Shown: piece after piece, positions 1 through 35,272 of the stretch
How positions within the stretch are numbered: the stretch's first letter is position 1
How the letters are laid out: every line of letters begins with the position of its first letter
IMG/VR virus record: IMGVR_UViG_3300022697_000054
Coordinates: 1 to 36,158 of that record
DNA length: 36,158 bases
Reading direction: 5' to 3' (one strand)
Source: a virus
Lineage: Duplodnaviria > Caudoviricetes
Program-made: the position numbers and the translations under genes
Notes under the pieces: model-generated
Database searches by the model: none
What the model was told of the DNA's origin: nothing
The model's input: only the letters and a program-made list of their open reading frames with translations

Positions 1-99
1 AAATTCTTACTGACGCATCCATTATTGCACCCGCTCAATCGCTATCATTTCCAGCGTCCGCTTTCTTGCATCGACATCTATTACATCTCTAATATCAAA
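1..99. repeat. Terminal direct repeat, copy 1 (circular assembly overlap)
   Basis: 1-99 is identical to 36060-36158; gene order (head closure then HK97 gp10) is continuous across the junction. Confidence 0.95.
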
Positions 100-423
100 T
101 ACGCGGGAGTCATAACTGATGCGATGTTTCGGCGTAATGCCCGATTGATACCGAATCCGAAATTTATGGGTAACATCCGCATGGACGCTTTTTGCGGTAA
201 AATATTCTCTGCCGCTTATCGGAATAACATCAGCCCAATAGGTACCTGTCGTAGTACCTACAGTTAATTCCACGCCCGCTTCTGTTGTTAACGTAACACC
301 GGCCTCAGTCGCTAATAACGCGCCCTGATAAGCACTCCATGTTTCCGCAGGTTCACCATAAGCGTCCCGCGTTTCCATCACGGCTTCGATGGTAATACGC
401 TTGCGTAGTCTGCCGGCTCTCAT
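22..423 (-). CDS. Head-closure (stopper) protein, SPP1 gp16/HK97 gp7-like, with a ~25-aa insertion
   Basis: MRAGRLRKRITIE...WADVIPISGRE...FRIRY...RVFDIRDV family pattern; follows head-tail connector. Confidence 0.88.
   Translation of the reverse strand: MRAGRLRKRITIEAVMETRDAYGEPAETWSAYQGALLATEAGVTLTTEAGVELTVGTTTGTYWADVIPISGREYFTAKSVHADVTHKFRIRYQSGITPKHRISYDSRVFDIRDVIDVDARKRTLEMIAIERVQ
262..318 (-). repeat. 57-bp repeat copy 1 encoding LLATEAGVTLTTEAGVELT
   Basis: 51/57 identical to 29924-29980; peptide identical. Confidence 0.95.
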
Positions 424-1228: not shown

Positions 1229-1600
1229 TTAAACGGGAGCTTTTATAGGCGCACCGCGTACAATAACAGCACCGTAAACCGCGCCGGTAGTCGTACCGGA
1301 TACAGTAGACACAACGCGCACATATCGCTTGATGCCGATATATCCTACGCGCTGAATTACGTTACTGGCAATCGCCGCGAACGACCCCACAAGATCAGCA
1401 GTCGCTACGTCCGTAAACGTAGAGTTATCTGCCGACTCCTGAAGTTTCGGCGTATGTGTGCCGTCCGTGCGGGTGCCGGGATGTACTACAGCCATTACAC
1501 CGTTATACCCGGAGAGATCAACCCCTGTACCGTTTTTTGTAGCAGTTATTGCCGCAGGAGCTATGCTCTGAACGACATCGACATTGTTTTTTATATCCAT
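1229..1600 (-). CDS. Capsid decoration/cement protein (beta-sandwich)
   Basis: Directly after major capsid gene; GVDLSGY...KLQESADNSTFTDV...KRYVRV; GGAG RBS. Confidence 0.7.
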   Translation of the reverse strand: MDIKNNVDVVQSIAPAAITATKNGTGVDLSGYNGVMAVVHPGTRTDGTHTPKLQESADNSTFTDVATADLVGSFAAIASNVIQRVGYIGIKRYVRVVSTVSGTTTGAVYGAVIVRGAPIKAPV

Positions 1601-3708: not shown

Positions 3709-4458
3709 CTATCCGGCCAACGCCAGCATTTCAGTAATGTTATTTAATTTATTATCGTAATTAGTAACAACCTCCATCGTTGCAACCATGATCGTTGCAG
3801 CGTTAATCGTGGATGTTTTGAGCTGTCCATTTTTAGCGGCGTCGTCAAATAGTGTTTGATTATCGATAACCTTTTTTGCGAAAAAGAAATCCGCTGATAT
3901 CGAACCGAGCTTGCCGGAGACCGCGTCAATATCTTCCGAAGTTTTAGGCGCTAATATCAAGAAATTTCCGCTGCCACTATATTTAGAAAAAACAGCCATG
4001 GGATCATCGTTTACGAGAGTTGTTTTTTTCAGTGATGCTTTTTGCGTCGGCAATGCGCGTAAAACCTTTTCGGCAGATTCCCCGTTTTTCAGAAGGTCGA
4101 AAAGAGGCGTGGCTTCCGGGTCTTTCTGTTTTATGGAAAAATGTTTGAGGTAGAAAAAACTATAAAAGAAATCCGCGCCGTCTGTTGCATTTATCGAAAC
4201 AACCTTATCGAACGTCTCCTGCGAGCCAACCCAGTCGAACCCTTTTAATGCGGCCTTATCCGAACCTGATAGATTCTGGATAAACGACAAAAGGATGAAA
4301 GATGTCTCATCGAACAGATTTACAATATGTTCTTTCGGTGGCTTCTTCGCAAGAAATAGTGCGGCGGTTCCATTGTCGGCAAACGGCTCGACAATCCGCG
4401 TATATTTCGGCGCGTGTTCAAAAATAGTTTTTGCGATTCCGAGCGATTTATATCCCAT
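3709..4458 (-). CDS. Degenerate Dam/D12-class N6-adenine methyltransferase-like protein, probably inactive
   Basis: GYKSL..IFEHAPKYTRIVEPFADNG resembles GGK...EPFxGxG; FFYSFFYL and C-terminal EVVTNY; no DPPY; ATG 4458 overlaps the portal 3' end. Confidence 0.65.
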   Translation of the reverse strand: MGYKSLGIAKTIFEHAPKYTRIVEPFADNGTAALFLAKKPPKEHIVNLFDETSFILLSFIQNLSGSDKAALKGFDWVGSQETFDKVVSINATDGADFFYSFFYLKHFSIKQKDPEATPLFDLLKNGESAEKVLRALPTQKASLKKTTLVNDDPMAVFSKYSGSGNFLILAPKTSEDIDAVSGKLGSISADFFFAKKVIDNQTLFDDAAKNGQLKTSTINAATIMVATMEVVTNYDNKLNNITEMLALAG

Positions 4459-6070
4459 CAGCCCCGCCCAATTCCAATAACGCCGCAAAACGTGCGACTT
4501 CGTTAATGTCAGTCAATACCGCATCCGCCCTCACTCGATCAAAATATTCCTTAACAATATCCCCCCGCAAAGCCAGCGCATCCGCTACGAGACCGATGTG
4601 TTTTGCGTAAAAATCTTTCAGCCAGCCGACAAGCTCTATTCCGTCTAAGCGGGCGCGGGCGGCATTTACTGCTTTGGATTCCTTTGTTGCCAATAGCGCG
4701 GCGGCGTTTTTAAGGGCTTTCGCGCCTCGGCTTTTTGTAACTGGGGCGGCAAACTCAAGAGCGGGAATCTCGCTCGAAGGTTTAAATATCGCATTACCTT
4801 CGGGTATCGGCTCCAGCCCTAGTTCTGCGCGCTTTTCGTTAACCGTCATTACATCGGAGTCAAGAGGTTGTTTTGCTCCGAGCGCATCGGCTGACTGCAT
4901 GTTAAGCGGGATCAGATATACATCGCCACCATTAATCGGATTCATATTTTCCTTTTTTCTGATATCGTTCGCAGAAAGCCAACCATCATTTCGTCCTTTA
5001 GAATAAGCTTCATATCGGCTTTTTACATCGCCGCGCAAAAGACCATCCACAACAAACGCAACAAATAAAGTTGCGCGCTGTTTTTCTGTTAAAATATCGC
5101 GCCTCAAAGCCTGCTCGATTCGTACAAGCCATGGTCTGATTGTATGCACTACGAAATCAATCGACTGTTGCTCTATGTTTGAAAAAGCGGACTTCGTTAA
5201 ATCGCCTATCATGTGCGGCGGGACTCGGAATATTCGCGCAATATCCGCAACCTGAAATCCGCGCAATTCTAAAAACTGCGAATCTTTATTACTGATACCA
5301 ATTTCTTTGTAAGTTATTCCCTGCTCTAATACTGCGGTTTTATGTTTATTTACGCCTGCCTGCGCGGCTTGCCACGATTCTTTAAATCTTTCAATCGATT
5401 CTTTATCTTTAAATGTTCCGGGATGTAAAAGAATCCCGCCCGGCTTCGCATCGTTTTTGAAAAACCGACCGGCGTATTTTTCAACCGCCATGCTCAACCC
5501 GATTGTTTCAGCGGCCTGCGTGATGCGACTTTCGCCTACGATTCCATCTGATGAAAAATCGCGCCAATGAAGCATTTCATTCTGCAATATCACACGTGCG
5601 CCACCGGTTGCGGGTTGGTAATAATATGCTATCCGTCCGTCAGGCGCACGGAATGGGCGTACTCTATCCGGGTTCAGTGGTATCAATTCCGATACCCCGC
5701 GCCCCGGCGTTGAGAATATTTCAGCATACGCATTGCCCCGTAATACCATATGACCCACCATCATTTCGCGGAACTCAAACGACGTTTGCCAACGGTTCGG
5801 CTGGTCATGTAGCAATGTATAGAGTGGCAAATCGAATGCCCGCGCCTTGCCGCCGCCTTTTGTTCTGCGATATAAAAACAACGGCAAACTCGCAATCGTC
5901 TCAGATATAACCCGCACCGCCGCCATGACCGCCGTGCATTTCATGGCATTATCTGGCGTTACGGATTCGCCGGATTCAGTTTCATCACCGCCGAACCAGC
6001 TTGCTATTAGCGGGTCTTTCGCCGTGCGCGAACCCCACTTTTCAGCATTGAATAATTTAAAAACGCTCAT
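4448..6070 (-). CDS. Portal protein, HK97 family, with C-terminal extension
   Basis: AVMAAVRVISETIASLP, RGNAYAEI, DSQFLE, IARIFRVPPHMIG, SNIEQQ. Confidence 0.97.
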   Translation of the reverse strand: MSVFKLFNAEKWGSRTAKDPLIASWFGGDETESGESVTPDNAMKCTAVMAAVRVISETIASLPLFLYRRTKGGGKARAFDLPLYTLLHDQPNRWQTSFEFREMMVGHMVLRGNAYAEIFSTPGRGVSELIPLNPDRVRPFRAPDGRIAYYYQPATGGARVILQNEMLHWRDFSSDGIVGESRITQAAETIGLSMAVEKYAGRFFKNDAKPGGILLHPGTFKDKESIERFKESWQAAQAGVNKHKTAVLEQGITYKEIGISNKDSQFLELRGFQVADIARIFRVPPHMIGDLTKSAFSNIEQQSIDFVVHTIRPWLVRIEQALRRDILTEKQRATLFVAFVVDGLLRGDVKSRYEAYSKGRNDGWLSANDIRKKENMNPINGGDVYLIPLNMQSADALGAKQPLDSDVMTVNEKRAELGLEPIPEGNAIFKPSSEIPALEFAAPVTKSRGAKALKNAAALLATKESKAVNAARARLDGIELVGWLKDFYAKHIGLVADALALRGDIVKEYFDRVRADAVLTDINEVARFAALLELGGADGI

Positions 6071-8279: not shown

Positions 8280-8380
8280 AATCTCCAGATGTTCATTTTG
8301 GCTTTGTGTACAGAACCTTTATCGTTCGCCTCTTTCATCGCCAGAATACAGAGATTGCACCCGGCATACCCATATTCGAC
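8280..8380 (-). other. Probable cos/packaging initiation region
   Basis: Position between HNH and TerS as in HK97-type cos phages; GGGTGCAATCTCT resembles sequence typical of this interval; exact cut site not determinable. Confidence 0.35.
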
Positions 8381-8458
8381 CGCCATTACGTTGTTTCTCG
8401 CTACTTCTACGCGCATCTCCTACACTACCGTAACACTCGTCTCCAATATCACGGGGTT

Positions 8459-8863
8459 TCATCGTAATTCATTACCACTACCGTGACACTTTCCTTTTTT
8501 GCGCCATGTGCTACCCTCTTCGCCGGATTTACGGCTGTGGCATGGAGCGCATAAGCTCTGTAGATTCATATCGTCTAAATCCGCGCCTCCGTGCCGAATC
8601 GGTACGATGTGATCAACTGTATCAGCAGACGTGATTATCCCTCTGCGTCCGCAACTGCGGCATAACGGCTCTCTTGTGAGGTGATATTGCCTCACTTTAC
8701 GCCATTTACTCGATGAATAGAACATATCGTTACGTGCGGGGTCTGCCCTACGTTCTTTATTGTAACGATTCATTACTTCTTTTTTATGTTTCTCGCAGTA
8801 TCGCTCATGCGTCAAAGCCGGGCATCCAAAATATCTACACGGTCTCGCTAATGCTCTCGCCAT
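8459..8863 (-). CDS. HNH endonuclease, packaging-associated (HK97 gp74-like)
   Basis: EPLCRSC...VDHIVP...NLQSLCAPCHSRK; upstream of TerS. Confidence 0.92.
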   Translation of the reverse strand: MARALARPCRYFGCPALTHERYCEKHKKEVMNRYNKERRADPARNDMFYSSSKWRKVRQYHLTREPLCRSCGRRGIITSADTVDHIVPIRHGGADLDDMNLQSLCAPCHSRKSGEEGSTWRKKGKCHGSGNELR

Positions 8864-9231
8864 TATTTTTTCCCCAACCCCTTCACGACGTGCGCCAAGA
8901 AATAAAACGCCAAGATGATACTAAACGGCTCGTTCACGTTCTCGGATATGACGTTAAATACGTATTTCGCCAGATCGTCTCCGTGCCATGCCTTCGCTAT
9001 CACGCCTACGATTATCAGTAAACACCACAAACTCGTTACTATCAGAGCGATTATCCGCCGTGCGATGCTTTGATATTGTGTAGCTTTAACGTATTCGAGC
9101 GTCCAATCGAGTACTTTTTTTTGCGCATCGGACTTCTCTTCATCCGTGAATATCGCTTTATCCACGCCCGCCGACACTTTGTCGATAACATTGTTTACGT
9201 TACCGCCCGTTATCCAGCTCCAGATTCCCAT
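8863..9231 (-). CDS. Holin (3TM/GTA-holin-like)
   Basis: VDKAIFTDEEK motif plus hydrophobic helices; adjacent to endolysin; ATG at 9231. Confidence 0.7.
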   Translation of the reverse strand: MGIWSWITGGNVNNVIDKVSAGVDKAIFTDEEKSDAQKKVLDWTLEYVKATQYQSIARRIIALIVTSLWCLLIIVGVIAKAWHGDDLAKYVFNVISENVNEPFSIILAFYFLAHVVKGLGKK

Positions 9232-9232
9232 T

Positions 9233-9640
9233 TCAATAACTCCACATCGCCGATTGTTTACTAGTGTCAACGTCAATATGGAGGAAGTACGGCTGTCCAT
9301 GCCGAGCTGATACGCCAATTCGCTCAAATCCCGCCTGTAATGCGGACACAACGTATAAAAGCATCGCTCCCGCACTGGAGACTTTCAGATCAACCGCATA
9401 ACCGCCAAGATGTGAGCTGGTCGGGCTTCCCCCAACAGCCTTATTGTGTTCGGGGCAACGGATTCCGCTATTGATTACCAGCCCTTGCTCACTACCTCCC
9501 GCAAGCATAACTGATTGATTTAAGATATCGCGCATGGCTTCAAGCCTCTCTACCAATCTCACATCCGGCTCAACAACCGCTACGCAGTCCGGCTCATTAC
9601 ATTTGCACGCAAATTCTGAATTTTTAAAATGTTCGCTCAT
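9233..9640 (-). CDS. Endolysin, peptidase M15A family
   Basis: HF...EFACKC, INSGIRCPEHN..VGG, SSHLGGYAVD, FLHID. Confidence 0.92.
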   Translation of the reverse strand: MSEHFKNSEFACKCNEPDCVAVVEPDVRLVERLEAMRDILNQSVMLAGGSEQGLVINSGIRCPEHNKAVGGSPTSSHLGGYAVDLKVSSAGAMLLYVVSALQAGFERIGVSARHGQPYFLHIDVDTSKQSAMWSY

Positions 9641-10102: not shown

Positions 10103-10140
10103 TTAGCGGGCTTCGTGAATGTTTGGGATTATGAGCAGTT

Positions 10141-10156
10141 TGGCACGGAGTGTGCA
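10141..10156 (+). promoter_or_regulatory. Sigma54-type -24/-12 promoter, copy 1
   Basis: TGGCACG-GAGT-GTGCA; GG-N10-GC spacing. Confidence 0.65.
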
Positions 10157-10198
10157 ATATATAAGTGTATGATTAACAATTTGAAAGAGGAAAAGAAG

Positions 10199-10384
10199 AT
10201 GACAAAAATAACAGAAGCTGTAATAGCGAATATAGAGACGGCAAAGGAAACATTCATCGCGGCACTCAAACCGATGCTTCACACATCAGTGATTGAAGCG
10301 AAAACGGACATTCAGCGGGCAATGCGGACTATTGAAGAGATCGCAAGAGTGGCTAAAACAACAGCAAAAGGACTCGACTACTAA
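10199..10384 (+). CDS. Hypothetical helical early protein (61 aa, MTKITEAV)
   Basis: GAGG RBS; ATG follows the duplicated promoter cassette. Confidence 0.7.
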   Translation: MTKITEAVIANIETAKETFIAALKPMLHTSVIEAKTDIQRAMRTIEEIARVAKTTAKGLDY

Positions 10385-10633: not shown

Positions 10634-10761
10634 AAAAAGGGGCTTAAGGTGAAACGAATTAGTTGCAATCTCGGCGAAACAGTATTACATAATCAGATTC
10701 ATAATTCATTTGTAATTACCCGCAAATCTCTTGACGACGTAGTATGTGCGATGGAAGTGTT

Positions 10762-10777
10762 CGGCACGGAGCGTGCA
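10762..10777 (+). promoter_or_regulatory. Sigma54-type -24/-12 promoter, copy 2
   Basis: CGGCACG-GAGC-GTGCA; part of a ~65-bp imperfect repeat with 10138-10201. Confidence 0.6.
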
Positions 10778-10819
10778 ATATATAATGGCATGATTAACAA
10801 TTCAAAAGAGGGAAAGAAA

Positions 10820-10996
10820 ATGGATAAAATGCAGGGGCACATCAAATCGGCTATTAAGCATCTGACCGAAGCGAAAAGAGGGTTAAAACATGCTGATTGG
10901 GAGACTAAGAAGATTATACGCGAAGCATTAGCGAATGCTAATCATGCGTTAATCGCTGTCGAAGTCGATATACAAACGAAAGCCGATGACATCTAA
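10820..10996 (+). CDS. Hypothetical helical early protein (58 aa, MDKMQGH)
   Basis: GAGGG RBS; same leader as the 10199 gene. Confidence 0.7.
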   Translation: MDKMQGHIKSAIKHLTEAKRGLKHADWETKKIIREALANANHALIAVEVDIQTKADDI

Positions 10997-25566: not shown

Positions 25567-27135
25567 TTACGGCGTGGTTAAAATAGCCATTTCGGCGTCT
25601 GAAGGGCATCTGTCATATCGCAACAGTCTGCCCATGTGTCCGTATGTAGGGCGAGAGGTTGAAGAATTCATCAGATAAATTTTGTTTTTATCTGTTATCG
25701 TTGTTGTCCCTTGAGTCGAGGAACTGGCAGTATTTGTGCCGTTCACCCAGAGTTTCAGCGTAGTCCCATCGAAAGAAATTCCCACTCGATAAGCCGTTTT
25801 CGGCGTGAACTCCGCAGAAGGCGAAGAGAGGTCGATAAAATGCCCTGAGTCAACCGAAACCTGTGCCCTAAATCTATCTGAAGAACCGCCAAACAAGAAC
25901 TGGTCGAAGATTGTTGGGCCTTGCAGTATCGTATCGAACCCACCTACGATACCGTCATAATCGAAGTCCAAGATTATCGCTCTTGGTTGGCTGTAGCCCG
26001 CCACGTTACCCGAAGTATCAATCCTGTTATCATCGGCGGCACGGGTAATTGATGTAGTCGTCGTCGGGATGTAAGACGATACGAACGGTGCATCTTCTAT
26101 CTGCGCGCCCCACACCCATACGCCTTTTGTAACATCACCGAGGTAATCGGCTATAACGCCATCGCCGGTAGTTACTCTAACGACCATCTGCTGGGCGCCG
26201 GTCTCAGCGCGCTCGAACTCACATCGGTAAAATCCGTTTTCCAGCAATGTTATTTTACCAACAGAACCTACGCTCTCGGTGCCTATCGCTCCCGCGCCGG
26301 AGAGATTGTACCAAACTGCTTTCGATGAGCCACCGGCGGGCTCAATAGATATCCATGTTCGACTTTTACCCTTAAGGTCGATTGAACAAGCAATTTTTCC
26401 GCTGGATACAGTAGCATTTTGGTAAAAAAGATGCTGTGCTGTAACAGCGGTCTCAAGCAGTAAATCAGCGGTTACGTTGCCGTCCGGCGCGGTCGTATCA
26501 TTAGCCGTAGGGGTGAGATTGCTTTTAGCCCATGCCGCGTTCGTGAAATCTTCGGAATAGAGAAATAGATTCGTTCCCGCACCTTCAAGTTTAACCTGTA
26601 TTTCACCATTCGCACCGCGCTCCCGGCGAAGCTCGTTTATCGCCGCACTCGTTACCAGCCCAGTGGTAGCATCTCTGTAAGTAGCCGTGGAAGCTCTTAA
26701 AACAAACTGCGCACCGGAAAGAGCCAGCTCATCATCAGCAGACCGCATAGGTACATAAACCTTCGGGTCATGTTTATCTGCCAGCCGCCATGCCTTGAAT
26801 TCTGCCGACTTTTCGACTACTTCCACGCTTGAGTTAAGCGAAGCATAGCCGCTCGCAACGCCTTTATTTGCGGTCGCTTCTTTCAGATCGAGCGCGGTCT
26901 GTTGTGCGGTTGATACCGGCTTATTCGCATCGGATGTATTATCTACATTCGAGAGTCCCACATCAGATTTTGCGAGAGTAACTACGCCCGTCTTGGACGC
27001 AACGCTCGTTACGGGTGCGAGATTCGCAATCTGTTGTGTCGTTAATTTTATCGTCGCGCTGGATTGAACCGCCGCTACCGGCTCGGTGCCGTCCGGCGTA
27101 ATGCCCGCTGTTAGATCACTAATTTTTACTGACAT
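25567..27135 (-). CDS. Fibre/spike protein with carbohydrate-binding and LamG/concanavalin-like domains
   Basis: N-terminal VKISDL; VGLSNVDNTSDANKPVSTAQ; TNLFLYSE; WGAQIE...SSYIPT...TRAAD; KLWVNG. Confidence 0.85.
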   Translation of the reverse strand: MSVKISDLTAGITPDGTEPVAAVQSSATIKLTTQQIANLAPVTSVASKTGVVTLAKSDVGLSNVDNTSDANKPVSTAQQTALDLKEATANKGVASGYASLNSSVEVVEKSAEFKAWRLADKHDPKVYVPMRSADDELALSGAQFVLRASTATYRDATTGLVTSAAINELRRERGANGEIQVKLEGAGTNLFLYSEDFTNAAWAKSNLTPTANDTTAPDGNVTADLLLETAVTAQHLFYQNATVSSGKIACSIDLKGKSRTWISIEPAGGSSKAVWYNLSGAGAIGTESVGSVGKITLLENGFYRCEFERAETGAQQMVVRVTTGDGVIADYLGDVTKGVWVWGAQIEDAPFVSSYIPTTTTSITRAADDNRIDTSGNVAGYSQPRAIILDFDYDGIVGGFDTILQGPTIFDQFLFGGSSDRFRAQVSVDSGHFIDLSSPSAEFTPKTAYRVGISFDGTTLKLWVNGTNTASSSTQGTTTITDKNKIYLMNSSTSRPTYGHMGRLLRYDRCPSDAEMAILTTP

Positions 27136-27170: not shown

Positions 27171-27869
27171 TTATGCTATTCGTGAACCATCGAATGAACC
27201 GATAATAGCAGAACTAGCACCTTGATTATGATAAGTAAAAAATTCAAAATAATCCGTGCTCCCGTTAGCATCAACAACAGCGGTTACAGATATAGATTGT
27301 CCTGATGCCACAATCTGATTTTCTAATAGCCGACCACCGGAACCATTTTTATATAAACGGATTTTTCCTATAAAATTTCCAGATGCAAAATAACTAACAA
27401 ACGCTGTTAACAAATATTTGCCCGCCACGGTCGGGGTAAATCTATAATTCGTAACAGCGTCATAATCTGAATTCGTGTCAAATACTTCAGACATAAAAGC
27501 CACTTTTGTCCATGCAGCATTCGGTATTGATTGGGTTCCGCTAACATCTGCGCTTAAACTAGGCCATGCTGAGCCTGCTAATGTTACTGCACTTGGCACA
27601 ATCGCCCCAGTAAATCCAGCCGATGTAAAGAACCCGACACTACTACCACCACAATAAACGTCTATTTTATTCGCGGAAGGGTTACTGATATATGTATCCA
27701 AATCATCGCGCCATGTAACGCCCGCACCCGTAACGCCGGTACCAACAATCACCTGCGAAAAATCACCTACGCTGTCTCGATTGTATTGAGTGTTATCAAA
27801 CACATTATCGAAATGCCCCTTTTTCGTCGGGTCTCCGATTGATACCGGGTTGCTATTAGTCCATGCCAT
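27171..27869 (-). CDS. Short tail fibre with C1q/TNF-like C-terminal domain
   Basis: Q.IPNAAWTKVAF..EVFDT...RFTPTVAGKY...DYFE. Confidence 0.8.
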   Translation of the reverse strand: MAWTNSNPVSIGDPTKKGHFDNVFDNTQYNRDSVGDFSQVIVGTGVTGAGVTWRDDLDTYISNPSANKIDVYCGGSSVGFFTSAGFTGAIVPSAVTLAGSAWPSLSADVSGTQSIPNAAWTKVAFMSEVFDTNSDYDAVTNYRFTPTVAGKYLLTAFVSYFASGNFIGKIRLYKNGSGGRLLENQIVASGQSISVTAVVDANGSTDYFEFFTYHNQGASSAIIGSFDGSRIA

Positions 27870-28216: not shown

Positions 28217-30229
28217 TTACCACCAAACCGATTTATTTACAGATGTGGCATCCGCAGGGTCGGCTCTTCCTACGCTGTCAGTCCAGAATCCCTGCGATTG
28301 TTTTTGCACATCCGTTGCCGATGTATAAACCGGCGCACCGGTGTCAGTCCAGAATCCTATCCGTTCGCTAATACCATGAAGATCGTTAGCCTCAAACTCT
28401 ATGCCCATTTCACGCGATAGGTTTTTTGAAATACCGGTAAGAATAAAAACACGGCTGGCGTATCCCGCACTTTCTTTAAATGGAGCGCGGGAACTTGTCA
28501 AACGTATTTGATGACCTAAATCAATTTGGGCAAGCTGAAATTTCGTCTTTCCAGATACGCGCAAAAACGGCGAACTCCGCAAAAGCAATTCACGTTGCGC
28601 AAGGATAATCGCATCAGATTGATTATCCAAATATGTATCAATCGTTTTTGATTTTTTGCGATCGTATTTATTTAAAGCATCGCTATCAGTCTGTTGTGTG
28701 TATGTGTAACTCCCTTTTGCGTAATCATAAGAATACCCAATCCGCATAATTGAACTGTATGTAGACGTATCCAAATTCGCGCGCAATGAAAGCAAGTCCG
28801 ATCTATCTATCATCGGTGCCGTGGAATCTATGACCGGATTCAAAACTTCGTACTCGAATTGTCCGCTTCGATTAACGTAGAACCGCGCTAAATCAGAACG
28901 GCAAATTTTATCTATTACATCAATCGTTCTTTCGACTTTATTGAGATATATCGCGCCAGTGAAAACACTATCTGTTTTTGAGGTTGCGAATATTGGTAAA
29001 TTTAAATCGGCATCAACAAAACTATTATGTGTCTGTAAAATATCTTTTACATAATCAGAGAAAAAAGTCATCTGGGTACTGTCAGCATTCTTAACGCCTT
29101 TGAACGCCGCCCGGATGAGCGTTTGGCCATTCGTGTAGCCGTTGGTAGTGAAGTCCACAATAAATGTAGCGAGCGTTAAATCAACCGTACCGTATTGGTC
29201 TGCACCTCCACCACTTGATACGGTAGCCCATGTTATACCCCCGTCATGGCTTACCTGAACCCCATCAAGTGAAAATATCGCGTGGTCGCATATTTTATAC
29301 TGAACTTTATTTGTCGCGTAGGATTCGTTTATCGCAGTTACGATAGGTGCGGTAGACGATGTGAACGTGCCCCATGCGAGCGGGATAGGGTTACCTATGC
29401 TTGACGCGTCCATATTCGGATAGGTAGAAGTATCAAAAAGGTTGTCGGGGAAACTTCTCAATAATTCAAGCTGGCTATCTTTAAGCCGGAAATTCACGCG
29501 GGTTTCATCCCATTCTTTATCTTGCATCCGTCCTGTAAAAGCCGGGTCGTATTCGCTAAACGGTAAATCTTCACCGCCGAAATAAATTTTAATCGGCTGA
29601 TTAAACCATAGGAACTTATCTAATATCACGTTCCAGTATCCATCGTTATTCGCCATTACGATCGTACCCGTAGTCGTTACCGCATAACCGGAATGCAGGT
29701 GCATCGACTCAAACCGCACCGAAGGAACTTCTAACAAATACGGCTCCCAATAAACATTATTTAATGCTATGCCTTCGGTCGCAAAATACATATTGAACGA
29801 TGCTTTTAAAACACTTGTTACAACCGTAGGATCGCCGCCGACGTTCACATAAAGCAACCCGTTATCAATATCATGCCAGTATGAATTCGCGGCCGCTTGA
29901 ACATTAGCGATAGACGATCCCGTAGTTAATTCTACGCCTGCCTCGGTCGTTAGCGTAACACCGGCCTCAGTCGCTAATAACGTATTGTTAAGCGTTAGCG
30001 ATGTTCCGTCCGCTTTGATACCTGTTATCGCTTTCCGAATCGTTACTACATCCCCGGACGTAAGCGTTACGGATTCATTTAAATATGAAATTCTCCACAC
30101 ATCCGTATTCGGTGATGATTCCTGCACCCACGCGAACGGCTGTAAATCTTCCGCCGGGGTTAATTGTGCGAGAATAATCTTATGTGTATTCGGAGTTGCT
30201 ATTAGCGAAGCAAACGTAGTTATACTCAC
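28217..30229 (-). CDS. Tail-tip hub/baseplate protein
   Basis: 670 aa, second gene after tape measure; GNPIPLAWG; beta-rich. Confidence 0.75.
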   Translation of the reverse strand: MSITTFASLIATPNTHKIILAQLTPAEDLQPFAWVQESSPNTDVWRISYLNESVTLTSGDVVTIRKAITGIKADGTSLTLNNTLLATEAGVTLTTEAGVELTTGSSIANVQAAANSYWHDIDNGLLYVNVGGDPTVVTSVLKASFNMYFATEGIALNNVYWEPYLLEVPSVRFESMHLHSGYAVTTTGTIVMANNDGYWNVILDKFLWFNQPIKIYFGGEDLPFSEYDPAFTGRMQDKEWDETRVNFRLKDSQLELLRSFPDNLFDTSTYPNMDASSIGNPIPLAWGTFTSSTAPIVTAINESYATNKVQYKICDHAIFSLDGVQVSHDGGITWATVSSGGGADQYGTVDLTLATFIVDFTTNGYTNGQTLIRAAFKGVKNADSTQMTFFSDYVKDILQTHNSFVDADLNLPIFATSKTDSVFTGAIYLNKVERTIDVIDKICRSDLARFYVNRSGQFEYEVLNPVIDSTAPMIDRSDLLSLRANLDTSTYSSIMRIGYSYDYAKGSYTYTQQTDSDALNKYDRKKSKTIDTYLDNQSDAIILAQRELLLRSSPFLRVSGKTKFQLAQIDLGHQIRLTSSRAPFKESAGYASRVFILTGISKNLSREMGIEFEANDLHGISERIGFWTDTGAPVYTSATDVQKQSQGFWTDSVGRADPADATSVNKSVWW
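29924..29980 (-). repeat. 57-bp repeat copy 2 encoding LLATEAGVTLTTEAGVELT
   Basis: Matches 262-318 at 51/57. Confidence 0.95.
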
Positions 30230-34130: not shown

Positions 34131-34541
34131 TTACGCCGTGGCTCTGGAAATATCGCCTGCAGATTTAAACGTGGCGTTAGTTGTCGCCAAATCGCCAACA
34201 GAATTTCCGAGCGGTGAATAAGCGTCCATTACAACAAGACCCGTATAGTTCGGATTCGATGTAGATACCGCCCCAGCGTCCGGGCGCAGTATAATCGTAA
34301 AAGCCGCCGCACCGATAAGCGGAAACAGTGTCGCATCAACCGAACTTGTAGCAAAGTCCTGCACAAACTCAACATCGGCAGACCAGCTTTTAAGTCCGGC
34401 GATATTGATCTCCGTGTTATCGCTCATTGATGTTGAGTCCTCCAGCTTCGCGCCGACATCGAGTTTGACGCTCTTAACGTGATCCGAGAGATCAACCCCA
34501 TTTATGCTTACAAAAGCATTTTTTAAAATCGAAATACCCAT
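34131..34541 (-). CDS. Major tail tube protein
   Basis: INGVDLSDHVKSV, IAGLKSWS, STSNPNYTG; precedes the chaperones. Confidence 0.85.
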   Translation of the reverse strand: MGISILKNAFVSINGVDLSDHVKSVKLDVGAKLEDSTSMSDNTEINIAGLKSWSADVEFVQDFATSSVDATLFPLIGAAAFTIILRPDAGAVSTSNPNYTGLVVMDAYSPLGNSVGDLATTNATFKSAGDISRATA

Positions 34542-34561
34542 TTAATTAAACTCCTTTCTGT

Positions 34562-35272
34562 TTATAAAATTCCTACGTTTACAATGAAATCGAAAGACGG
34601 CGAAGTGCCGCCAATCGTAAAATCAACTCTGTACCAGTCGTCAGTTATCGCACCGGCAAGCTCTTTCCATTCGCTCGTAATCCCGGTTGCCTGCGTGAAG
34701 GTTATCCGTGAAACAGGCGAAGTGAAACCGCTTGCGGTATCGCTTTGTATAACTACGTCAAGTGTCGGTGACGTGCCGGACACGGTTGTAACGTGCATCG
34801 AAGCGTAAAGAGTTTGAGCCGCTGATACCGCGCCTAATTGCCGTGCCGTACCGCTTGCGCTCGCTGTTTTTGCCGCGTTTAAAAGAATCGTACCTTTATA
34901 AAATGCGTTGCCTTTTCCCGACACGGAAAATTTAAACGTATCGCCTACTGAACCGCCGGGCGAATAAGCCGCGTGCGCCGCTTTAATCGAAAAAGCGTCT
35001 TCGCCTTCCGCGCCTGTATCGGCGGATAGAGTAGCCGCCACATCTGCAAGTGAGAGATTTGCAAAAAATTCCGAGTCCGGTGTAGCATCCCAAAAACCTT
35101 CGTAAGCGAATCCAGCGGTTTTTAAGCCTGCCAGATTTATTTCCGTCACGTCTGCAAGCGATGTTGAATCCTGCATATTTGCGCCTAAATCCAGTCCCGC
35201 CGCTGATAGTCGGTTTGAAAATTCATAACTGCCGACCCATACCTTGCGTTGTTTAACAATCTGTAATCCCAT
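34562..35272 (-). CDS. Tail-tube paralog with C-terminal beta-sandwich domain
   Basis: Shares DSTS..D.TEIN.AGLK and YSP.G.SVGD with 34131-34541; ~110 extra residues. Confidence 0.7.
   Translation of the reverse strand: MGLQIVKQRKVWVGSYEFSNRLSAAGLDLGANMQDSTSLADVTEINLAGLKTAGFAYEGFWDATPDSEFFANLSLADVAATLSADTGAEGEDAFSIKAAHAAYSPGGSVGDTFKFSVSGKGNAFYKGTILLNAAKTASASGTARQLGAVSAAQTLYASMHVTTVSGTSPTLDVVIQSDTASGFTSPVSRITFTQATGITSEWKELAGAITDDWYRVDFTIGGTSPSFDFIVNVGIL

What the first reader, a model, noticed from the sequence alone, without database searches (positions are those of the whole stretch)
262..318. Portable 19-aa 'TEAG' peptide inserted into both the neck stopper and the tail-tip hub: a candidate plug-in fibre docking tag
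Seen: LLATEAGVTLTTEAGVELT occurs identically in two unrelated virion proteins, the head-closure protein (262-318) and the 670-aa hub (29924-29980). The two 57-bp copies differ at 6 positions and all 6 are synonymous, which points to selection on the peptide rather than the DNA. From family knowledge: in the stopper it interrupts the normally short ETW...WA.V.P segment, so it looks like a loop insertion. Inference: it is a beta-hairpin adaptor that recruits one partner at two virion sites. The best candidate partner is the N-terminal VKISDL...VQSSATIKLT module of the 522-aa fibre, which would then decorate both neck and tail tip. I recall L.TE.G..L.TE.G motifs near KIS[DEQ]L-starting fibres in other phages but cannot verify this here.
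Basis: partly seen in the sequence, partly recalled or inferred. Interest (0 to 1): 0.82.

Follow-up and report, generated by a model that had tools for sequence, protein, structure and literature searches.

The report
Portable fibre-docking tag on phage virions
A phage carries the same short three-repeat peptide inserted in its neck protein and its likely tail-tip hub, and across many phages this peptide travels with a small fibre-start domain that it is predicted to plug into, so one host-binding fibre is likely mounted at both ends of the tail by a movable tag with a matched-residue code.

Summary
Observation confirmed (minus strand). The 19-aa peptide is part of a 27-aa insertion in the head-closure protein and a 23-aa insertion in the hub; no homolog has it at these sites. 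A second assembly holds both copies. The motif occurs in about 1,100 viral stretches, in unrelated virion proteins. When C-terminal, the next gene starts with the KIS-x-L cap in 39 of 52 loci. In one nozzle family, caps accompany the long loop in 17 of 44 loci and the short loop in 0 of 36, across repeated gains or losses. A complex model puts one tag across three caps (0.73; best control 0.02). A predicted contact co-varies: Arg-type tags go with Glu21 caps (67 of 67), Leu-type never (0 of 60). The 3:1 principle is known (fibre attachment loops of Pa223, Pa193, E217, P7-1), but I found no description of this portable family or its code. Binding and two-site decoration remain untested. The scan noted similar plugs on other DNA before.

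The parts
22..423 (-). Head-closure (stopper, Hc1/gp16-like) protein, 133 aa
   Evidence: PF05521 E 8e-28, phrog_25; model matches SPP1 gp16 7z4w, SF1141, RcGTA stopper
247..327 (-). 27-aa insertion in the stopper (residues 33-59) that carries the tag
   Evidence: absent in 15 of 15 aligned homologs; only the window's own protein has it among 162 Hc1 proteins; low pLDDT alone, residues 31-42 under 50
262..318 (-). Tag copy 1: three 8-residue units with L37, L45, L53
28217..30229 (-). 670-aa likely tail-tip hub (Tal-like), after tape measure and Dit-like genes
   Evidence: gene order; phrog_8917 unknown function; Atlas lead PF13550 in 20% of one cluster; assignment inferred
29924..29980 (-). 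Tag copy 2 (residues 84-102), in a net 23-aa insertion
   Evidence: absent in 6 of 6 homologs and in 13 of 13 related loci
25567..27135 (-). 522-aa fibre: N-terminal cap, shaft, RcGTA head-fibre-like domain (140-371), LamG domain (417-515)
   Evidence: 6tb9 Rcc01080 E 2e-26; PF13385; tail fibre PHROGs
27025..27135 (-). KIS-x-L cap (fibre residues 1-37), the only one in the genome; predicted partner of the tag; Ala at position 21 fits a Leu-type tag
   Evidence: 39.5 bits, single hit of the cap profile in the window
27171..27869 (-). 232-aa C1q-like fibre whose N-terminal motif recurs beside tag-less hub relatives; likely the ancestral tip fibre, not a cap protein

Best explanation
The peptide is a portable insertion that likely acts as a fibre-docking tag: its three 8-residue units are predicted to bind the three subunits of the KIS-x-L cap at the start of the likely trimeric 522-aa fibre, one tag per trimer, so the fibre would decorate both the neck and the tail tip. 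Shown: the insertions, the spread of the motif over unrelated virion proteins, its genetic coupling to the cap, and residue co-variation. Predicted: the 3:1 interface, with cap V3/K4/I5, L8, residue 21 and T28 meeting each unit. Inferred: up to six fibres at a hexameric stopper and up to three at a trimeric hub; outward exposure of both loops; tag and fibre gained together, with one tag copied from the other inside this genome; a role in first, reversible binding to surface polysaccharide.
For: Insertions. Spread: about 1,100 Leu-type and 270 Arg-type viral stretches in 52 sequence clusters of in-frame hits, a few of them chance frames, including Hc2 and Hc3 head closures, central fibre J, baseplate wedges and sheath-related proteins. 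Adjacency: cap within 250 nt downstream of a C-terminal tag in 39 of 52 Leu-type and 28 of 33 Arg-type loci. Family control, loci chosen on the nozzle only: cap in 17 of 44 long-loop and 0 of 36 short-loop loci, 7 of 8 versus 0 of 13 with at least 8 kb upstream; at least 7 loop changes forced on the tree, and in 7 independent pairs the cap goes the same way in 5.8 and the other way in 0.0 (median p 0.03). Hub relatives: no tag and no cap in 13 of 13 loci, 5 with 1.8 kb or more downstream. Model: score 0.73, best of 3 controls 0.02; the mark was reached by 116 of 157 solved complexes and 2 of 215 mismatched pairs (counts hold only roughly here); runs agree in at least 85% of contacts, partner pLDDT at least 71. 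Co-variation at the predicted contact cap-21 with tag-L45: Glu in 67 of 67 Arg-tag loci, 0 of 60 Leu-tag loci; 24 of 24 versus 0 of 45 after de-duplication; the Arg set was fetched after the idea arose and was not in the alignments given to the model.
Against: No experiment or structure shows binding. The model used a 32-aa stopper fragment, not the assembled ring, and the hub copy was not modelled. A single origin of the Arg/Glu class is not rejected (10 changes on the best tree, but p-AU 0.38 and no starred branch), so the co-variation may be shared descent. 13 of 52 and 5 of 33 C-terminal tags lack an adjacent cap hit. From the cap side, only 24 of 80 long loci had a Leu-profile tag hit and 25 of 120 an adjacent one; looser tags are visible by eye, but many caps have none next door. 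Brucella phage Pr has a nozzle tag and no cap hit above 4.3 bits genome-wide; its ORF28 and the Tb fibre begin with a segment that resembles a cap only by eye. No other Hc1 protein among 161 has a tag at this loop site.
Confidence: 0.8

Rival explanations
1. The tag binds the cap, but only the hub copy is used; the stopper copy is a recent, tolerated duplicate that is buried or unoccupied.
For: 27 identical coding nucleotides suggest recent copying; unique at this loop site among 162 Hc1 proteins; exposure in the ring was not modelled.
Against: All 6 differences are synonymous; another Hc1 stopper (P0106) ends in a clear three-unit tag and two more (P0052, P0138) end in looser ones; Hc2 and Hc3 head closures carry tags repeatedly; the model that passed used the stopper copy.
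Confidence: 0.12
2. Tag and cap travel together as a recombination cassette (end of one gene plus start of the next) without touching; the peptide has another job, such as metal binding through its acidic turns or binding another partner.
For: Most adjacent pairs are tightly linked DNA; one origin of the Arg/Glu class is not excluded.
Against: Coupling holds when the cap gene is 2-9 kb from an internal tag, including the Arg-Glu match (L372, L378, L386, L398); specific model with clean controls.
Confidence: 0.06
3. One copy is an assembly artefact or a chance match.
For: No reads were available; the second contig may come from related material.
Against: The copies differ at 6 sites, both keep the frame, and a separate assembly has both.
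Confidence: 0.02

Closest known systems
Fibre attachment loop (FAL) of Pseudomonas phages Pa223 (bioRxiv 10.1101/2025.06.11.659172, section 9 read), Pa193 (PMC11456595), E217 (PMC10329688), P7-1 (PMC13338283) (passages read)
   Same: One loop of a virion scaffold protein binds the N-terminal tip of a trimeric fibre 3:1; in Pa223 three periodic Trp (363, 370, 377) form a pseudo-threefold plug; P7-1 has two loops for two fibres.
   Different: No sequence match: neither profile hits the Pakpunavirus PAK_P1 proteins. Period 8 with T-E-x-G turns. The papers describe each FAL within one baseplate or hub protein; this tag is mobile across unrelated proteins, sits in a siphophage stopper and shows two residue-matched classes.
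RcGTA head spike fibre Rcc01080 (PDB 6tb9; PMC7296036, passages read)
   Same: Homologous domain (fibre 140-371, E 2e-26); a repeated short peptide bridges a symmetry mismatch.
   Different: There the fibre is a monomer whose own five-repeat N-terminus binds a pentamer; this fibre lacks that N-terminus and starts with the cap.
Bead domains of Milano and 7-7-1 short tail fibres (8fqc, 9rkv) and crAss001 gp22 residues 28-56 (7qoj)
   Same: Weakly similar small trimer-fibre domain (Foldseek E about 1, prob 0.82 and 0.66; VIA Z 2.6, rmsd 4.5, 40 aligned; HMM E 0.4).
   Different: There the domain is internal and attachment is by other N-terminal parts (PMC10811340, PMC12796354, PMC10172136); the matches are leads only.
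phi92/phAPEC8 arm plus endosialidase (PMC13450770, abstract and section 9 read)
   Same: In phAPEC8 the gene before the endosialidase ends in a tag-like peptide and the endosialidase starts with a weak cap-like segment (8.1 bits); phi92 fibre I is an arm with the endosialidase proposed at its tip.
   Different: That joint was not resolved or described at residue level in the section read.

Membership tests
Fibre attachment loop (3:1 fibre dock) | A single loop or terminus on a virion scaffold protein, outside the core fold | tested here: met
Fibre attachment loop (3:1 fibre dock) | Three periodic hydrophobic residues | tested here: met
   L37, L45, L53; third position L/I/F in 103 of 110 tags
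Fibre attachment loop (3:1 fibre dock) | Binds the N-terminal tip of a fibre trimer in the virion | tested here: inconclusive
   Model supports it (0.73 against 0.02) and co-variation agrees; not shown by experiment
Fibre attachment loop (3:1 fibre dock) | Sequence homology to the Pakpunavirus loops and fibre starts | tested here: not met
   No hit at 0 bits in four PAK_P1 proteins, used as a stand-in for P7-1; Pa223, E217 and Pa193 were tested only through PDB profile searches
Head completion protein PF05521 (Hc1) | Profile above cut-off and gp16-like fold | tested here: met
   97.6 bits against cut-off 25
Mtd_N cap PF18454 | Pfam match of the fibre N-terminal domain | tested here: not met
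   0 of 49 caps at E up to 1; remote kinship is not excluded
RcGTA head spike fibre | Homologous binding domain | tested here: met
RcGTA head spike fibre | N-terminal alternating Leu-Gly five-repeat | tested here: not met
   The fibre starts with the cap; repeat as described in PMC7296036
Tal/hub tail-tip protein | gp27-like hub fold | tested here: inconclusive
   No Pfam or PDB sequence hit; gene order and an Atlas lead only; not folded

The most novel reading that the evidence does not exclude
A widespread, undescribed plug-and-socket system: a 24-residue three-repeat tag can be dropped into almost any virion protein (neck, nozzle, hub, wedge, small vertex adaptors) to recruit any fibre that starts with the 37-residue cap, and it exists in at least two mutually exclusive classes (Leu with Pro/Val/Ala; Arg with Glu) that would let a virion address different fibres to different sites. 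This phage gained the fibre and tagged two sites with it.
Probability: 0.55. Interest if true: 0.85.

Novelty: new variant of a known kind. Interest (0 to 1): 0.72.

Why it matters
It gives a sequence rule for where flexible, usually unresolved receptor-binding fibres attach on a virion, and shows how a phage can gain a fibre, or move it to a new site, by inserting about 70 nt. The Arg/Glu switch is a sharp, directly testable specificity code, with cultured examples (Shewanella phage S0112, phAPEC8, DSL-LC05). If orthogonal, the pair is a natural 1:3 display tag.

Tried and rejected
Core-fold reading: rejected. Misassembly: unlikely; no sequencing run was listed. PDB sequence searches with stopper, hub, cap profile and tag profile found no solved tag-cap pair (the tag profile hit only designed beta-trefoils at E above 0.3). 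Fold searches with the 44-aa cap gave only weak rows; absence there is no evidence of a new fold. Pfam has no family for tag or cap. Tree of caps could not show several origins of the Arg/Glu class. Cellular genomes: of 80 loci examined, 49 had the motif in frame and 7 of those a cap; many others look like chance matches. Literature: nine searches (docking motif; crassvirus tail hub; symmetry mismatch with three repeats; Milano; LxTE/TExG/TEDG/KISEL/KISQL; tailspike with C-terminal motif; fiber attachment loop; Rcc01080; siphophage neck fibres) showed no description of this motif family in the listings or passages seen; the library lacks most subscription papers and I opened no supplements, which may hold alignments. 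Passages of the Avs-1 (PMC13612043), A1002 (PMC13730344) and TspA (10.64898/2026.07.19.739414) papers describe other attachments.

Full report
Setting. The window is a circular 36-kb siphophage-type genome (99-nt terminal overlap; virus record with direct terminal repeats) with HK97-like head genes, Hc1 stopper, neck, tail tube, tape measure, Dit-like, hub and fibre genes on the minus strand.

Observation. The 19-aa peptide is in the stopper (262-318, residues 36-54) and the 670-aa hub (29924-29980, residues 84-102), both on the minus strand, with six differences, all synonymous. They cluster in codons 10-16 while the first nine codons are identical, so one copy was probably made or partly overwritten from the other recently, with the peptide held constant (inference). 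A second assembly (L358) carries both copies.

Insertions. In the stopper it lies in a 27-aa insertion between the ETW and WA.V segments, absent in 15 of 15 homologs and in all 161 other Hc1 proteins checked at this site. The folded model keeps the gp16 barrel and leaves the insert poorly ordered. The insert precedes the strand that leads to the tunnel helix of SPP1 gp16 (PMC9701221, passages), so it is not the channel plug; that it faces outward is inferred. In the hub it is a net 23-aa insertion absent in 6 of 6 homologs and 13 of 13 related loci.

A portable family. L.TE.G..L.TE.G occurs in an estimated 1,100 IMG/VR stretches. In the 120 loci fetched it sits at termini or in loops of unrelated proteins; 39 cluster representatives scanned include Hc3 nozzle, Hc2 head closure, central fibre J, baseplate wedges, sheath stabiliser and collagen-like fibres. 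A third hydrophobic residue follows 8 positions on (L/I/F in 103 of 110), so the unit is a triple 8-residue repeat. One other Hc1 stopper has a clear C-terminal tag and two have looser ones: necks have been tagged more than once.

Coupling to the cap. A profile built from 49 KIS-type fibre starts (two of 50 candidates dropped as unrelated, the window's own added) finds a cap in 47 of 80 long tag loci, and directly after 39 of 52 C-terminal tags. For an unbiased control I fetched 80 long loci by a nozzle motif alone. The nozzle loop is either short or long, usually with tag units; caps occur in 17 of 44 long-loop and 0 of 36 short-loop loci. On a tree of the 39 loci with at least 4 kb upstream, the loop changes at least 7 times and independent pairs agree (5.8 same, 0.0 opposite of 7; median p 0.03). 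Against: from the cap side only 24 of 80 long loci had a hit to the strict Leu-type tag profile, and Brucella phage Pr has a tag without a scoring cap. The window has exactly one cap, on the 522-aa fibre, and tag-less hub relatives have none (5 of 13 with useful downstream length).

Model. Three copies of fibre 1-44 with stopper 27-58 scored 0.73, best of 3 controls 0.02; the mark was reached by 116 of 157 solved complexes and 2 of 215 mismatched pairs, counts that hold only roughly here; runs agree in at least 85% of contacts and partner pLDDT is at least 71. Cap V3/K4/I5 of subunits 1, 2 and 3 meet tag L37-T39, V43-E48 and E52-L53 in turn, an 8-residue register shift per subunit; L8, residue 21 and T28 of neighbouring subunits complete each pocket. 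This supports binding and does not show it.

A residue code. The model pairs cap residue 21 with tag L45. In cap-selected loci I noticed tags with Arg in place of Leu next to caps with Glu21 and then tested this on a new scan for Arg-type tags (about 270 stretches). Of 118 loci with the tag in frame, 67 had a cap and all 67 have Glu21; of 117 Leu-type loci, 60 had a cap and none has Glu21 (Pro 35, Val 14, Ala 7, Leu 3, Gly 1); 24 of 24 versus 0 of 45 after de-duplication at 80%. The match holds for caps 6-9 kb from an internal tag and in cultured phage S0112. The window's pair, Leu tag and Ala21, fits. With column 21 removed, 9 of 69 caps have their nearest neighbour in the other class and the best tree needs 10 changes, but one origin is not rejected (p-AU 0.38). 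The Arg pattern also fixed neighbouring Ile and Asp, so other positions may contribute.

Mechanism. Most likely each stopper and hub subunit shows a flexible tag that folds into the threefold tip of a fibre trimer, giving up to six neck fibres and three tip fibres (stoichiometry from family knowledge, inferred). The fibre carries an RcGTA head-fibre-like domain and a LamG domain; RcGTA head fibres bind the host capsule (PMC7296036, passages), so a role in first polysaccharide attachment is likely.

What is known. The 3:1 pseudo-threefold dock is described as the fibre attachment loop in Pa223, Pa193, E217 and P7-1. The tag works like one, by prediction, but shows no sequence link to the Pakpunavirus loops or to any PDB chain. 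I found no account of this family, its mobility or its two classes in nine literature searches (listed under Tried and rejected); supplements were not opened. Earlier AI notes of this scan describe three-repeat plugs on other genomes (e1-8116588, e1-10211375, e1-8104076, e1-5586407). They show no sequences, so I could not check that they are the same family; I reuse the three-unit plug wording of the first and count none as evidence.

Verdict. New variant of a known kind; interest 0.72. Open: direct binding, occupancy of the neck copy, and whether the two classes are truly orthogonal.

Noticed in passing
window 28217-28370 (-), hub C-terminus; 27171-27869 (-): The hub ends in two GFW.D-type repeats conserved in its family, and hub relatives are usually followed by a gene starting like the 232-aa C1q-like protein (..NP..VG..TKK..FD): possibly a second, older tag-and-fibre pair.
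   Followed up: partly
L030, L091, L248, L269, L283, L284, L480:8317-8475: Proteins of about 50 aa with an alternating hydrophobic-Gly stretch near the N-terminus, like the RcGTA head-fibre pentamer-binding repeat, and a C-terminal tag: candidate five-fold-to-three-fold adaptors for capsid vertices (9 of 69 short tag ORF calls matched a strict pattern; some of the 69 are internal starts).
   Followed up: partly
L019, L040, L042: Cap preceded by a signal-peptide-like N-terminus (judged by eye) in the gene after the tag.
   Followed up: no
L479:12359-17286 and 8375-9474 (phAPEC8): Two tag-like C-termini each followed by a cap-like start, one on the endosialidase; may explain the unresolved arm-tailspike joint of phi92-like phages.
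   Followed up: partly
window 1229-1600 (-): 123-aa gene after the capsid gene with a weak Bbp16 match (below cut-off); possible cement or spike-base protein.
   Followed up: no
window 3709-4488 (-): 259-aa ORF between portal and protease with a methyltransferase-like N-terminal motif (recalled label); only phrog_13242, unknown function.
   Followed up: partly
window 34131-35272 (-): Two consecutive major-tail-protein-like genes (236 and 136 aa).
   Followed up: no
window 10138-10209 and 10759-10830; 11824, 17383, 19885; 17478 and 19995: A 72-nt repeat ending in a ribosome site and start codon, and shared short gene starts among small plus-strand ORFs: likely promoter cassettes and paralogous early genes.
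   Followed up: no
L047/L062, L073/L080, L388, L396: Other genomes with two separately tagged proteins within one locus.
   Followed up: no
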